The position numbers and the translations under genes are program-made. Source: a virus (Duplodnaviria > Heunggongvirae > Uroviricota > Caudoviricetes). From it: a stretch of 34,098 nt of DNA. Location: IMG/VR virus record IMGVR_UViG_2531839446_000020. One strand, 5' to 3'. The notes beneath the pieces are model-generated. The model was not told the origin of the DNA and did no database searches. It saw only the letters and a program-made list of their open reading frames with translations. This document shows, piece after piece, positions 25,219 through 29,390 of this stretch. Numbering within the stretch: position 1 is the stretch's first letter; each line of letters opens with the position of its first letter.

Positions 25219-25425
25219 CTTCATTTTCACTTTCTTAAATCTAACGACAGACGGCTAACATTTAAGTATTGTGAAATATTATCAAATGTAATCATCATTG
25301 ATTTACAAAAGATACATTTTGCCCCGAAAGGATTCCTGTCAGAAACATCAAAAGATGATGTTCTATACTGAGAACCATGGCAACACGGGCATCTAAAGTG
25401 AATATGGTTTGTAATATTTTCTACC

Positions 25426-25638
25426 TCAAAGTGCCACTACATGAACAGCCGCGGGGCCTTTAGGTCCGTTCTCAATACCAAATTCGACTTGCTGATTCTC
25501 AGTTAACGTTTTGAAATCGTTGCTCTGAATAGCTGAGAAATGGACAAACACATCTTTGCTACCATCTTTCGGCGTGATGAAACCAAAACCTTTTTCAGGG
25601 TTAAACCATTTCACTAAACCAGTCATTTTGTTAGACAT
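25426..25638 (-). CDS. cspI: Cold shock protein, CspI-like
   Basis: [70 protein letters not shown]; long AT-rich 5' leader (25639-26000) typical of csp genes. Confidence 0.85.
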
Positions 25639-26001
25639 TATTATTACCTTTTGAAGAAGTTAGCCCTTGGGCAGAATGGTCCGAAAAAAAATATCAGAGA
25701 GAAAAACCAACAAGGAAATCTCAAGAGGTACAAATAATAAAATTATAACAATGACTGCTTCAGATAATTTTGTAACAAACCAGAACACCATTAACGCATG
25801 ATTAACCAACCATAGCAAGGATTACTTTTGTAAAGAAAAACACACGAATGAAACAATAGCTTTATTTATTAATAAAACGTGTCATTCTGTCTAATGACCT
25901 TTTATCTTACCCTTAAGATTTCAAGGATTTTGACTCATGGAAGAGTCCTTTTTATTTAAATTTCACATTCAGCGCTAAAAATAATCCGATTTAATATTAA
26001 T

Positions 26002-27029
<1,028 letters not shown>

Positions 27030-27136
27030 GGATATTTATCAGGATTTATCGGCTTCAAATCCCCGGATATGTTAAATCTTACCTCACCAGTGATGGGCAC
27101 TGGCGGGAGGAGGATGTCAATCTGATAAACACAGAG

Positions 27137-27403
27137 GTGACTATGGATTACACAAATCTACCAAAACAAACTTTTGCTGATTTAATCGCACTCAGGCAAG
27201 CAGTCGTAGCTCTAATCAACTTGTTGCCGGAGAAGGAAAAGGAATTAGTTAAAGCGCTTCTTAACAGAACTGCCGCCGATTTTTCATCATATCCACTGAC
27301 AGATGACCTTGCGGACCTTCCTGAATTAATTGCAGCGTCCGCCATTAAGCTTACTGAAGAGATTTACCCTCCTCAAAAATCTTCACAAAATTCCTGCGAG
27401 TAA
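27137..27403 (+). CDS. Hypothetical plus-strand ORF (88 aa) inside the lysis cassette
   Basis: Good RBS (AGAGGTG) before the ATG; fills the 320-bp gap between the 183-aa ORF and the endolysin; 3' end overlaps the convergent 183-aa ORF by about 50 bp. Confidence 0.35.
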   Translation: MTMDYTNLPKQTFADLIALRQAVVALINLLPEKEKELVKALLNRTAADFSSYPLTDDLADLPELIAASAIKLTEEIYPPQKSSQNSCE

Positions 27404-27902
27404 CTTCAATGCAATAATCGTAAAACGCCGCAAACTGCTCATCGCGGCGTTTTTTTTCATCTTCAGAAGGGATCAGCACCGACAATTTTTTATTCAGATC
27501 AGCGACGCTGCCCTCCAGTTTTTCAATGGGCGATTCAATATCATCTTTTTCTGACCGCAATGCCGTCGGTGGCGTCTTCAGAGAACCAGTAATTCTTCCC
27601 GGTAGCTTTCCTTTGTAGGTTATCCACACATTCTGCGCCTCTAAAATTATGGGGCGCTTTTCCGGCGACTGCTCATCCCCTACACATAACCCGGCAGCAA
27701 CATCCAGGAATACCTGTCTGATTCTCATTCTGGCTGCTGCCTCATAAAACTCCAGCGCGGCACCTTCAACACGGTCCAGCGAGATGTCCAGGTCAAAAAT
27801 TTCACCGTCAAAGCGTTTTTTGTCCCGTAAGGCTACAGTTACCGCCACTTTATTCTCAAAATTGCGGACTCCTTTCACAACCAGTTCATAGTCTTGTGTC
27901 AT
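27351..27902 (-). CDS. Hypothetical protein (183 aa) inserted between holin and endolysin
   Basis: Start at ATG 27900-27902 (MTQDYELVVKGVRNF...), 4 nt after the holin stop. Charged, no transmembrane segment, no motif I recognise. Occupies the position of ydfR in the K-12 Qin lysis cassette. Confidence 0.55.
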   Translation of the reverse strand: MTQDYELVVKGVRNFENKVAVTVALRDKKRFDGEIFDLDISLDRVEGAALEFYEAAARMRIRQVFLDVAAGLCVGDEQSPEKRPIILEAQNVWITYKGKLPGRITGSLKTPPTALRSEKDDIESPIEKLEGSVADLNKKLSVLIPSEDEKKRRDEQFAAFYDYCIEVTRRNFVKIFEEGKSLQ

Positions 27903-27906
27903 TGGA

Positions 27907-28122
27907 TTACTCTCTTCTCGCAACCTTACGCCTGTCTTCTTTAATCTTGAAATAAAGGTTTGTCAGATACGTCAGCAGGCCAAAAACCAGACTACCCAGC
28001 ACACCGATTGCAGCCCACTGTGACGGAGTTACTTTATCGAGTAACTGCAATGCCCAGAAACCAGCATTACCAGCCGATGTGCCATAGGCGATACCTGTTG
28101 TTAACTTATCCATTGATTTCAT
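27907..28122 (-). CDS. Holin, S21/EssD-type pinholin
   Basis: [71 protein letters not shown]; 71 aa, two transmembrane segments, close to phage 21 S / EssD. Confidence 0.85.
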
Positions 28123-28596: not shown

Positions 28597-28874
28597 ATTG
28601 TGGTACTTTTTGTGGGAGTCATCCACTTACGCACTTTGTTTTGCTATGCCAGCAGTTAGCTTCTGCTGTAAAACTATTCATGCAGCAAACCTGCACTTCA
28701 CCACAATGGTTAGCATACTTTTCCTGATTAAGTTATTGCCAAATATGCTGGCCATCGTTTCATGTATTGGACCTCCTTACTATTTATTAAAGAGATCCAA
28801 TATTCACCACTCTGTCTGTATCTCCACTCAGGCATCAGCCTTCTTCGTTATCGTATACAGACAAACTATGAATT

Positions 28875-29090
28875 TTAATCAGTAATTATGACATTTGCTG
28901 CTGCAGGACCTTTAGCACCACTCTCTACAGAGAAGGTAACCTTTTGACCTTCAAATAAGGTTCGAAAATTATCATTCTGAATCGCAGAAAAATGCACAAA
29001 CACATCTTTACTACCATCAACAGGAGAAATAAAGCCGAAACCTTTATCAGCGTTAAACCATTTTACTAAACCAGTCATTTTATTTGACAT
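28875..29090 (-). CDS. cspB: Cold shock protein, CspB-like
   Basis: [71 protein letters not shown]. Confidence 0.85.
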
Positions 29091-29390
29091 TCTACATTCC
29101 TTAACTTGAGCCTTTCGGCATAAATGGCTTGTATAACAGAAACGACTTCGTACTTAATTGGAGAGACTCAAAGAAGGAATAAGTGAATAACACCTGAAAT
29201 GAGAACTGCTTTAGTAAACTACTTCGTATATCGTCTGTTCTTCAAACCGACGCAATCATTAACGCATAGTTGAACATATGAAGCAATGTTTATTTTAGAC
29301 ATCCAGCCATCTTCAACCCCATCAAAAAACTATAGCTTTCTTCAGGAACGTGTGTATAGTGCGCCCAGTTATCAGTATTAAGGAATTTTT

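What the first reader, a model, noticed from the sequence alone, without database searches (positions are those of the whole stretch)
27030..27906. Unannotatable insert inside the lysis cassette: 183-aa ORF plus a convergent 88-aa ORF between pinholin and SAR endolysin
In canonical pinholin/SAR-endolysin cassettes (phage 21, DLP12) the holin and endolysin genes are adjacent. Here about 880 bp separate them, holding a 183-aa charged cytoplasmic-looking ORF that starts 4 nt after the holin stop, and a plus-strand 88-aa ORF with a strong RBS that overlaps its 3' end convergently. Neither has a motif I recognise. A gene at this spot is co-expressed with lysis at late times, a position known to host lysis regulators or host-directed morons. 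The window's best candidate for an undescribed function.
Basis: partly seen in the sequence, partly recalled or inferred. Interest (0 to 1): 0.6.

Follow-up and report, generated by a model that had tools for sequence, protein, structure and literature searches.

The report
YdfR-family lysis-cassette gene plus antisense moron
The stretch between the holin and endolysin genes of this E. coli prophage holds a member of the known YdfR/DUF1327 family fused to a small helical module, plus a real 86-residue gene on the opposite strand; the two genes travel together in E. coli and Salmonella prophages, and what they do is still untested.

Summary
The label "unannotatable" is wrong.

- **The 183-aa minus-strand ORF** is a YdfR/DUF1327 protein (Pfam 140.8 bits). 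Its first 73 residues are 82% identical to K-12 YdfR. That is the fragment a 2026 paper showed binds the catalytic half of RNase E. Residues 113-183 are a separate helical module, which I call "A". A is a free-standing 67-73-aa gene in other prophages.
- **The plus-strand ORF**, which I call "B", is 86 aa from its ATG and belongs to PHROG 2572. It is a genuine gene: it is conserved at 41-54% identity in three allele groups, with a coding-type substitution pattern. It has its own Shine-Dalgarno site and a hairpin plus U8 terminator lying inside A's coding sequence.
- **A and B form a conserved pair.** They are convergent and overlap by 53-59 nt. The pair sits at three different positions in Escherichia and Salmonella lysis cassettes. 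K-12 Qin lacks it.
- **Prevalence:** about 5% of complete E. coli genomes and seven viable temperate phages carry this allele.
- **Other searches:** no match to a protein family of known function, no structural match and no defence-system match was found for A or B.

Best reading: a late YdfR::A protein plus an antisense moron gene B. How they work remains inference. Interest is moderate.

The parts
27907..28122 (-). Class II (phage 21 S type) pinholin gene, essQ
   Evidence: Pfam Phage_holin_2_1, E 7.3e-34. RefSeq calls it essQ.
27351..27902 (-). 183-aa YdfR-family ORF: a DUF1327 domain fused to helical module A. It starts 4 nt after the holin stop.
   Evidence: phrog_2091 matches full length (E 4.7e-112). 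The ORF is intact in most of the 106 B-carrying loci surveyed and in phages 2H10 and PhiR63_1.
27567..27902 (-). DUF1327 domain (aa 1-112). Residues 1-73 correspond to the RNase E-binding fragment of K-12 YdfR.
   Evidence: Pfam PF07041, 140.8 bits over aa 1-112. 82% identity to K-12 YdfR over aa 1-73. AF2 gives three strands plus a helix, block-mean pLDDT 63-83 over aa 1-70. RNase E binding comes from PMC13232886.
27351..27566 (-). Module A (aa 113-183 plus stop): two long helices. It is free-standing in other prophages.
   Evidence: Homologous to the standalone 73-aa Salmonella gene and the standalone 67-aa E. coli gene P0198. The frame is kept across the 169-, 176-, 183- and 211-aa variants. 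Third-position-biased substitutions.
27143..27403 (+). Gene B: 86-aa acidic three-helix protein (PHROG 2572, RefSeq WP_001306174.1), antisense to the late operon
   Evidence: AF2 gives three helices, mean pLDDT 74.8. pI 4.6, GRAVY -0.11.
27134..27139 (+). Shine-Dalgarno sequence GAGGTG for B
   Evidence: Read from the sequence. Conserved in all group 1 loci except one point change in L003.
27422..27457 (+). Intrinsic-terminator-like hairpin (AAAACGCCGC / GCGGCGTTTT) plus U8, 19 nt after the B stop. It lies inside A's codons E149-Y161.
   Evidence: dG -14.6 kcal/mol, z -3.55. The stem is kept in all three allele groups with one compensatory G-C to A-U pair.
27032..27103 (+). Conserved non-coding platform upstream of B. 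It holds the ATATTTATCAGGATTTATC motif, candidate -35 TTATCG (27046-27051), candidate -10 TATGTT (27068-27073) and a leader hairpin (27087-27103).
   Evidence: Conserved in position across groups 1, 2 and 3 and in loci with different cargo genes. It does not reach the consensus threshold of the promoter scan.
26496..27029 (-). Lysozyme-type endolysin rrrQ. Its N-terminal segment looks like a signal-anchor-release (SAR) segment.
   Evidence: Pfam Phage_lysozyme, E 2.6e-24. The N-terminus [18 protein letters not shown] was read.
26002..26499 (-). Rz-like spanin gene rzpQ (DUF2514) with an embedded Rz1-type lipoprotein frame
   Evidence: Pfam DUF2514, E 1.9e-38. The embedded ORF 26052-26348 carries the lipobox LTSC.

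Best explanation
The region is the accessory slot of a Qin-type lambdoid lysis cassette (pinholin, accessory gene, SAR endolysin, Rz/Rz1). It holds two genes.

**(1) A late gene transcribed with the lysis genes.** Its product joins a DUF1327/YdfR domain to a 70-residue two-helix module, A. By homology with K-12 YdfR, the DUF1327 domain docks on the catalytic N-terminal half of RNase E and may bind RNA. This step is inferred here.

**(2) Gene B on the opposite strand.** B is a moron in the classical sense: a self-contained unit with its own leader, ribosome-binding site, 86-codon ORF and factor-independent terminator. Closely related prophages such as K-12 Qin lack it. Its terminator hairpin is written into A's coding sequence (codons RR...AA). 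B's last 53 nt overlap the end of A.

**A and B are inherited as one unit.**
- Fused to DUF1327 (this window).
- Free-standing after the holin (other E. coli).
- Free-standing after Rz (Salmonella).

**Proposed working, all inferred.** B is made from its own weak promoter when the late operon is silent, that is in the lysogen or early in infection. Once Q-dependent late transcription starts, it runs antisense through B and shuts it off. The same transcript produces YdfR::A, which acts on RNA decay or on B's product while lysis is prepared.

Shown here: the identity, architecture, conservation and coding status of the parts. Not shown here: transcription of B, any A-B contact, RNase E binding by this allele, and any phenotype.
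For: **Family assignments**
- DUF1327: 140.8 bits against a cut-off of 25.
- phrog_2091 and phrog_2572 match full length.
- RefSeq names agree.

**Link to RNase E**
- 82% identity to K-12 YdfR over aa 1-73.
- K-12 YdfR residues 1-72 bind RNase E 1-597/598 in two-hybrid and co-purification assays, and the protein co-purifies RNA (PMC13232886).

**Insert boundaries**
- Homology with K-12 breaks at 27040-27696.

**B is coding**
-.

**Terminator**
- Hairpin plus U8 with z -3.55.
- The stem is conserved in all groups, with one compensatory pair, while the flanks diverge.

**A and B as one module**
- Three allele groups in three positions.
- The overlap is always 53 or 59 nt in the loci where a convergent ORF could be called (eleven loci, nine where none was called and two oddities, were not checked individually).
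- Standalone A genes with their own Shine-Dalgarno sites sit directly behind the Rz or holin stop codon.

**Shared upstream platform**
-.

**Carried by viable phages**
- 2H10, PhiR63_1, PhiR5_1 and the PhiR12 series.
Against: - No promoter for B reaches consensus quality. The scan found none upstream, and the best conserved candidate matches only 7 of 12 positions.
- No expression data for B exist in what I could search.
- Module A evolves fast. It is 16-30% identical between groups, and Salmonella variants differ at 27 of 73 codons while B barely changes. It folds with low confidence (pLDDT about 55). It could therefore be a tolerated read-through tail rather than a working domain.
- PGAP treats the ORF as a truncated pseudogene.
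- Overproduced K-12 YdfR gave no growth defect and few transcriptome changes, so the RNase E contact may have little consequence.
- The authors could not exclude that a contaminant carried the RNA.
- No family or fold match of any significance exists for A or B.
Confidence: 0.6

Rival explanations
1. A and B are lysis-timing regulators. They would modulate the pinholin or the SAR endolysin, for example as a cytoplasmic antiholin cofactor in the manner of T4 RIII.
For: - Position inside the lysis cassette, with close coupling of the 183-aa ORF to the holin stop.
- A standalone A sits directly behind the holin or Rz stop codon.
- A genetic screen cited in PMC13232886 linked ydfR to envelope integrity.
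Against: - Neither protein has a membrane segment or an export signal; GRAVY is -0.1 to -0.75.
- B is antisense to the late operon, so it cannot be co-expressed with lysis genes from the late promoter.
- K-12 Qin and DLP12-type cassettes do without the pair (for Qin; DLP12 from general knowledge).
- The only tested biochemical partner of YdfR is RNase E, not a lysis protein.
Confidence: 0.15
2. A and B form a toxin-antitoxin, abortive-infection or anti-defence pair kept in check by convergent antisense transcription. The model is the type I systems that share a bidirectional terminator.
For: - Convergent 3' overlap with a shared hairpin, conserved in three allele groups.
- B is highly conserved while A diverges quickly, as in an arms race.
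- B is a small acidic helical protein, a common shape for phage inhibitor proteins.
- Other antisense cargo genes use the same slot and the same upstream platform.
Against: - No PADLOC hit for the 183-aa ORF, B, its homologue P0140 or the standalone A, and no relevant Pfam hit.
- Neither partner is a hydrophobic peptide like type I toxins.
- The profile matches of B to AcrIIC4 are not significant (E 0.2).
- Both partners encode proteins rather than one being an antisense RNA.
Confidence: 0.12
3. Only the DUF1327 domain matters. The C-terminal 70 residues are a tolerated read-through tail created when the B moron landed in the 3' end of ydfR. This is the PGAP view, which calls the gene an incomplete pseudogene.
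For: - PGAP annotates only 336 nt and marks the gene 'missing C-terminus'.
- The commonest family members are 114-116 aa.
- The model has low confidence beyond residue 70.
- A is poorly conserved between groups.
Against: - The reading frame to the same ...KSLQ end is kept across in-frame length variants of 169, 176, 183 and 211 aa.
- Substitutions in the tail favour third codon positions: 13 of 26, with 12 synonymous.
- A exists as a separate gene with its own Shine-Dalgarno site and start in Salmonella and in E. coli.
- Between Salmonella variants, second codon positions are spared: 13/5/12.
Confidence: 0.12
4. The plus-strand ORF is a chance or shadow ORF, and the 320 nt before the endolysin gene are only an untranslated spacer of the late transcript.
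For: - The antisense frame across B is also long-open, 71-90 codons, in all groups.
- Within group 1 the counts of synonymous changes are similar in both frames.
- The phage record PhiR63_1 does not annotate B.
Against: - The B frame is the best conserved of all four frames compared (the B frame and the three antisense frames) in every between-group comparison.
- The antisense frame lacks start codons in groups 2 and 3.
- B keeps its Shine-Dalgarno site, its length and in-frame indels.
- B shows one synonymous change in 74 codons between Salmonella variants whose neighbour gene changed at 27 codons.
Confidence: 0.05

Closest known systems
YdfR of the E. coli K-12 Qin prophage (P76160; Pfam DUF1327)
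   Same: - Same slot between essQ and rrrQ.
- Residues 1-73 are 82% identical, which covers the fragment that binds the RNase E N-terminal half (PMC13232886).
   Different: - K-12 YdfR is 103 aa, and its stop overlaps the endolysin start.
- Here the protein is 183 aa, with a different segment from about residue 69 and an added helical module.
- 321 nt of antisense-B sequence separate it from the endolysin gene.
Morons of lambdoid phages, for example lambda bor (general knowledge of the Hendrix/Juhala definition)
   Same: - B is a small self-contained unit in the late operon, opposite in orientation to it.
- Close relatives lack it.
- It is followed by a factor-independent terminator.
- In Salmonella it lies between Rz and the small terminase subunit gene, which by my recollection (not tested here) is where bor lies in lambda.
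   Different: - Bor is an exported lipoprotein; B is a cytoplasmic acidic three-helix protein.
- B always comes with a convergent, overlapping late-strand partner, A.
- B's promoter is unproven.
Type I toxin-antitoxin loci with convergent transcripts and a shared bidirectional terminator (par of pAD1, txpA/RatA, bsrG/SR4; general knowledge)
   Same: Tail-to-tail overlap of two transcription units around one conserved hairpin, carried in a prophage.
   Different: - Both partners here are soluble proteins of about 70-90 residues.
- There is no hydrophobic toxin peptide and no evidence of toxicity.
Phage proteins that target RNase E (T4 Srd, T7 gp0.7, phiKZ Dip; general knowledge)
   Same: A phage-encoded protein that contacts RNase E. 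This is proposed here for the DUF1327 domain, by homology.
   Different: - No sequence or fold relation was found.
- YdfR is a late gene of a temperate phage.
- Overproduced K-12 YdfR had little effect on transcripts.
PHROG families 2091, 2572 and 2411
   Same: - The 183-aa ORF matches phrog_2091 end to end, and B matches phrog_2572 end to end.
- The alternative 90-aa cargo of the same slot is phrog_2411.
   Different: All three families are listed as 'unknown function', so membership adds no mechanism.

Membership tests
YdfR / DUF1327 (Pfam PF07041) | Profile score above the curated gathering cut-off (25 bits) | tested here: met
   140.8 bits, E 1.6e-41, residues 1-112 on profile positions 1-92 of 93.
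YdfR / DUF1327 (Pfam PF07041) | Gene placed directly after a class II holin gene and before the lysozyme gene of a lambdoid lysis cassette | tested here: met
   The order is the same in K-12 Qin and in loci with the 296-aa form.
YdfR / DUF1327 (Pfam PF07041) | Single-domain protein of about 103-116 residues | tested here: not met
   The ORF is 183 aa. Residues 113-183 are an extra module that is a separate gene elsewhere.
YdfR / DUF1327 (Pfam PF07041) | Binding of the N-terminal ~72 residues to the RNase E catalytic half (shown for K-12 YdfR) | not testable with these tools
   Only sequence identity could be measured: 82% over residues 1-73. The binding data come from PMC13232886.
PHROG 2572 (gene B) | Full-length profile match | tested here: met
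   E 1.3e-53, residues 3-88 of the 88-aa reading on profile positions 1-86 of 86. The Salmonella-type homologue P0140 also matches (E 3.5e-27).
Moron (independent gene unit inserted in a phage operon) | Present in some but absent from otherwise collinear relatives | tested here: met
   K-12 Qin is collinear on both sides but lacks 27040-27696. Only 294 of 5426 genomes hold B, against 3151 that match part of the slot region, mostly its DUF1327 part.
Moron (independent gene unit inserted in a phage operon) | Own factor-independent terminator | tested here: met
   A 10-bp G+C-rich stem plus U8, 19 nt after the stop; z -3.55. The stem is conserved in all allele groups. Function was not tested.
Moron (independent gene unit inserted in a phage operon) | Own promoter | tested here: inconclusive
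   No site of consensus grade lies upstream. A weak -35/-10 pair (7 of 12) is conserved in position in all groups and with other cargo genes.
Toxin-antitoxin or anti-phage defence systems | Match to a known toxin, antitoxin or defence-protein profile, or a small hydrophobic toxin | tested here: not met
   No PADLOC hit for the 183-aa ORF, B, its homologue P0140 or the standalone A. No relevant Pfam or NCBIfam hit. All GRAVY values are negative.
Antiholins / membrane lysis regulators | Membrane-spanning or exported segment that lets the protein meet the holin | tested here: not met
   No hydrophobic stretch appears in either translation. GRAVY is -0.42 for the 183-aa ORF and -0.11 for B. No dedicated membrane-segment or signal-peptide predictor was run.
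Pinholin / SAR-endolysin cassette (context of the finding) | Phage 21 S-type holin and a lysozyme with an N-terminal weakly hydrophobic Ala/Ser/Leu-rich segment | tested here: met
   Phage_holin_2_1 E 7.3e-34 and Phage_lysozyme E 2.6e-24. The endolysin N-terminus [18 protein letters not shown] was read. Release from the membrane was not tested.
DUF1823 (label given to B in the PhiR12 phage records) | Pfam profile match | tested here: not met
   No DUF1823 hit at E up to 0.1 for B, or up to 1 for its homologues.

The most novel reading that the evidence does not exclude
A and B form a two-state switch not yet described.

- B is made in the lysogen from its own promoter. It would be an inhibitor of a host or phage function, most attractively RNase E-dependent RNA decay or a lysis or defence step.
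- The late operon then does two things at once. It silences B by antisense transcription through it, and it delivers A, which neutralises B's product.
- In this allele A is tethered to an RNase E-docking YdfR domain.

This would be a new class of antisense-coupled protein pair that hands control of RNA decay, or of lysis readiness, from the lysogenic to the lytic programme.
Probability: 0.1. Interest if true: 0.65.

Novelty: new variant of a known kind. Interest (0 to 1): 0.35.

Why it matters
- More than half of complete E. coli genomes match part of this slot region, mostly its DUF1327 part. The only experimental lead for that family is a 2026 report that K-12 YdfR binds RNase E.
- The slot also works as a landing pad for opposite-strand cargo genes that share one upstream platform. 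One such cargo, B, always travels with a late-strand partner across Escherichia and Salmonella.
- This gives a concrete, cheap system for asking what YdfR does and how morons are wired into a late operon. Viable phages 2H10 and PhiR63_1 carry it, and natural alleles exist with and without each part.
- The work also flags a systematic annotation problem: PGAP calls the intact 183-aa gene a truncated pseudogene.
- If nothing comes of the A-B link, the region is an ordinary accessory gene plus an ordinary moron.

Tried and rejected
**Searches that found nothing useful**
- NCBIfam gave no hits for either ORF.
- PADLOC gave none, except a chance PbeC hit (E 0.018) on the 296-aa form.
- Rfam found nothing in the region.

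**Structure and fold searches**
- The Foldseek search of the B model against viral structures had a best E of 1.8. Against the PDB it gave one hit at E 8.6.
- The 183-aa model against the PDB had a best E of 0.23, on de novo beta-sheet designs. That model's mean pLDDT is only 55.5, so this result is weak in any case.
- The afdb50 library was not available.

**Weak sequence hits set aside**
- The 183-aa family profile hit the PARP-1 BRCT domain at E 0.01. I rejected this as compositional.
- The B profile hit AcrIIC4 at E 0.2, which is not significant.
- The exhaustive phmmer search also returned a 975-aa repeat protein (eight matched stretches, E 1.6e-10). I rejected it as a low-complexity repeat match.

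**Ideas tested and dropped**
- The DUF1823 label used in the PhiR12 records is not reproduced by Pfam.
- A profile comparison of B with the alternative 90-aa cargo showed no relation.
- I considered that the late-strand 65-aa ORF (27148-27345) is the real gene. I rejected this because it is less conserved than B and has no start codon in groups 2 and 3.
- A second hairpin inside the DUF1327 coding region (27635-27657) is not better than shuffles (z -1.47).

**Other limits**
- The scan of one genome per species found only E. coli. The Salmonella alleles came from the exhaustive search and cluster look-up instead.
- Literature searches for DUF1327, essQ/rrrQ and the RefSeq accession gave nothing functional beyond PMC13232886.
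Full report
**1. What is in the sequence**

The lysis cassette lies on the minus strand.
- Pinholin gene: 27907-28122.
- A 183-codon ORF: 27351-27902. Its ATG follows the holin stop by 4 nt.
- Endolysin gene: 26496-27029.
- Rz-like gene: 26002-26499, with an embedded lipoprotein frame.

On the plus strand an ORF runs from 27137 (GTG, 88 aa) or 27143 (ATG, 86 aa) to 27403. It overlaps the end of the 183-codon ORF by 53 nt. The GTG sits inside the GAGGTG ribosome-binding site. Homologues, PGAP and the PHROG profile all give 86 residues, so the ATG is the likely start.

**2. Where the window comes from**

The region is 100% identical to E. coli CFT073, APEC O1, S88 and many other strains. RefSeq labels it 'YdfR family protein | hypothetical protein | essQ | rrrQ'. 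It is a Qin-type lambdoid prophage, flanked by cspB, cspF, cspI, ynfU and gnsB. Two cspA thermoregulator elements were the only Rfam hits in the window. Inducible phages 2H10 and PhiR63_1 carry the same 951 bp at about 99% identity.

**3. The 183-aa ORF**

It matches Pfam DUF1327 at 140.8 bits (cut-off 25) over residues 1-112, and phrog_2091 end to end.

Homology with K-12 Qin runs through the holin gene and the first 68 codons, breaks at 27696, and resumes at 27039 just before the endolysin start. So 657 bp here replace 92 bp in K-12, where the ydfR stop overlaps the rrrQ start. Residues 1-73 are 82% identical to K-12 YdfR.

The family is modular:
- Short forms of 114-116 aa are the commonest.
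- Forms of 169, 176, 183 and 211 aa share the tail ...KKRRDEQFAAFYDYCIEVTRRNFVKIFEEGKSLQ.
- Forms of 268 and 296 aa carry a different large C-terminal domain and have no gene on the opposite strand.

The AF2 model shows three strands and a helix for residues 4-73 (block-mean pLDDT 63-83 over residues 1-70). It is of low confidence (pLDDT below 50) for residues 70-126. It then shows two long helices, 123-182, at pLDDT about 55.

PGAP annotates only the first 336 nt and marks the gene a pseudogene 'missing C-terminus'. That does not fit three observations:
- The frame is conserved across in-frame length variants.
- Substitutions in the tail favour third codon positions.
- The ORF is intact in most of the 106 B-carrying loci surveyed.

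**4. What is known about the family**

A 2026 study screened for partners of the RNase E N-terminal half.
- It recovered the first 72 codons of K-12 ydfR.
- It confirmed full-length YdfR against RNase E 1-597 by two-hybrid assay.
- It co-purified RNase E 1-598 with Strep-YdfR.
- It found DNase-resistant nucleic acid in the eluate.
- Overproduction gave no growth defect and few transcript changes.
- The gene was silent under standard growth conditions (PMC13232886).

This is the only functional lead I found. Other literature searches gave nothing.

**5. The plus-strand gene B is real**

The word-indexed search found only close E. coli relatives at 85-99% identity, some with whole-codon indels. 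The exhaustive search of 1.84 billion representatives added two diverged homologues of 93 and 89 aa.

Evidence that the B frame is the coding frame:
- Between the three allele groups, B is 41-54% identical. Differences are lowest at codon position 2 and highest at position 3.
- The antisense frame that shares third positions is long-open in every group. It is less conserved: 35-48% identity and 0.8-1.8 BLOSUM units per site, against 1.8-2.4 for B. It has no start codon in two groups. I treat it as a shadow ORF.
- Two Salmonella variants differ by one synonymous change in B's 74 non-overlapping codons, while the neighbouring gene A differs at 27 of 73 codons.

B is acidic (pI 4.6) and not hydrophobic. 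It is predicted as three helices with mean pLDDT 74.8.

**6. A and B form one unit**

I call residues 113-183 of the ORF module A. Wherever B occurs, a convergent late-strand ORF ends 53 nt (group 1) or 59 nt (groups 2 and 3) inside B. Eleven of the 106 loci did not fit (nine where no convergent ORF was called, two oddities); I did not check them one by one, though L008 carries an IS3 insertion and contig ends probably account for most.

| Group | Host | Arrangement |
|---|---|---|
| 1 | E. coli, 294 of 5426 complete genomes | holin, DUF1327::A, B, endolysin |
| 1, variant | E. coli, 393 contigs | holin, standalone 67-aa A with its own Shine-Dalgarno site 3 nt after the holin stop, B, endolysin; no DUF1327 at all |
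| 2 | E. coli and E. albertii, 6 complete E. coli genomes | a K-12-type YdfR tail runs on into a diverged A, then B, then endolysin |
| 3 | Salmonella enterica, B allele counted on 1000 contigs (the tool's counting limit), absent from complete E. coli genomes | endolysin, Rz, standalone 73-aa A (start in TAATG with the Rz stop, Shine-Dalgarno GGGGG), B, about 400 nt, small terminase subunit |

By my recollection, the group 3 position is where bor lies in lambda.

**7. RNA and DNA signals**

*Terminator.* Nineteen nt after the B stop lies a G+C-rich hairpin followed by U8 (27422-27457). Its dG is -14.6 kcal/mol and its z-score -3.55. On the other strand these bases encode E149-Y161 of the ORF; the stem arms are the RR and AA codons. 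The eight-pair stem is conserved in all three groups while the loop and flanks differ. Group 2 has one compensatory G-C to A-U change, which alters the protein from RR/AA to HH/VA. The U-tract is strong only in group 1.

*Upstream platform.* A non-coding stretch upstream of B (27032-27103) is shared by all groups and also by loci with other cargo genes. It contains ATATTTATCAGGATTTATC and a positionally conserved weak -35/-10 pair, TTATCG and TATGTT. The pair matches only 7 of 12 consensus positions. The scan tool reported no promoter there. A promoter is therefore plausible but unproven.

**8. Searches for function**

No significant hit was found for A or B in Pfam, NCBIfam, PADLOC, PDB sequences, PDB folds or viral predicted folds. 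The DUF1823 label in the PhiR12 phage records could not be reproduced. The AlphaFold-database fold library was not available.

**9. Interpretation**

*Shown.*
- The ORF is a YdfR-family late gene carrying an extra module.
- B is a conserved protein gene of opposite orientation, with a terminator-like hairpin written into A.
- The pair is a mobile unit that K-12 lacks.
- Phages that carry it are viable.

*Inferred.*
- The DUF1327 domain docks on RNase E, as in K-12.
- B is expressed from its own promoter when the late operon is off.
- Late transcription, antisense to B, silences it and supplies YdfR::A.

Whether A contacts B, and what either does, is unknown.

*Rivals.* The rivals are a lysis-timing role, a toxin-antitoxin or defence pair, a non-functional read-through tail, and a spurious B ORF. 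Each is listed with its evidence. The last is the least likely.

**10. Verdict**

The finding is real, but it is not an unrecognisable insert. The other is an already catalogued hypothetical gene. The new element is the architecture: a conserved convergent A/B pair with a terminator embedded in coding sequence, found at three cassette positions in two genera. In the library I could search, the few keyword searches I ran turned up no description of it. Interest is moderate (0.35).

Noticed in passing
L111 (NZ_CP104618.1) 1255-1527 (+); counterpart of window 27040-27566: In E. coli with the short 114-aa YdfR, the same slot holds a different convergent 90-aa ORF (phrog_2411, WP_000370545.1). It overlaps the ydfR end by 35 nt and sits behind the same upstream platform. 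It has no detectable homology to B. The slot looks like a landing pad for opposite-strand cargo genes.
   Followed up: partly
L110 (E. coli O26 RM10386, NZ_CP028126.1) 1621-2253 (+): An unannotated 210-aa plus-strand ORF sits in the same slot and overlaps a 263-aa DUF1327 fusion ORF by about 250 nt. It has no Pfam, PADLOC or PHROG match. Whether it is a real gene is open.
   Followed up: partly
window 27567-27902 and 27351-27566 (-); L001 6568-6903: PGAP annotates the intact 183-codon ORF as a 336-nt pseudogene 'missing C-terminus' in CFT073 and other genomes. Phage records and nr list the full protein. This looks like an annotation artefact caused by the short-form family model.
   Followed up: yes
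L107-L109 3001-3891 (+): The 296-aa YdfR forms carry a C-terminal domain of about 130 residues (…EWECNRPSFVVSGDAGKITISENGK…) with no Pfam match, and the locus has no antisense gene. The first part of module A (coiled coil plus QFAAF.DYC) is shared with these forms. B-type loci may therefore derive from them, or the reverse.
   Followed up: partly
window 27635-27657 (+): A second hairpin, GCGCCTC...GGGGCGC followed by UUUU, lies inside the DUF1327 coding region. In L111 it lies about 45 nt after the stop of the 90-aa cargo gene. It is not better than shuffled sequence (z -1.47).
   Followed up: yes
window 27148-27345 (-): A 65-aa late-strand ORF starts 6 nt after the stop of the 183-aa ORF and lies fully antisense to B. 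The frame is open in all allele groups but is less conserved than B, and it has no start codon in groups 2 and 3. I judge it a shadow ORF.
   Followed up: yes
window 28812-29251 (-) and 25380-25785 (-): Two full-length cspA thermoregulator elements (Rfam RF01766, 158 and 113 bits) lie upstream of the cold-shock genes that flank the lysis cassette. PMC13232886 notes cold induction of the K-12 essQ-ydfR cluster.
   Followed up: no
L008 (NZ_CP074909.1) 2137-3350: In one E. coli genome an IS3-family element has inserted into the 3' part of gene B and separates it from ydfR.
   Followed up: no
window 27143-27400 (+): The profile of B gave weak, non-significant matches (E about 0.2) to the 88-aa anti-CRISPR AcrIIC4 over residues 25-86. 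Fold searches did not support any relation.
   Followed up: partly
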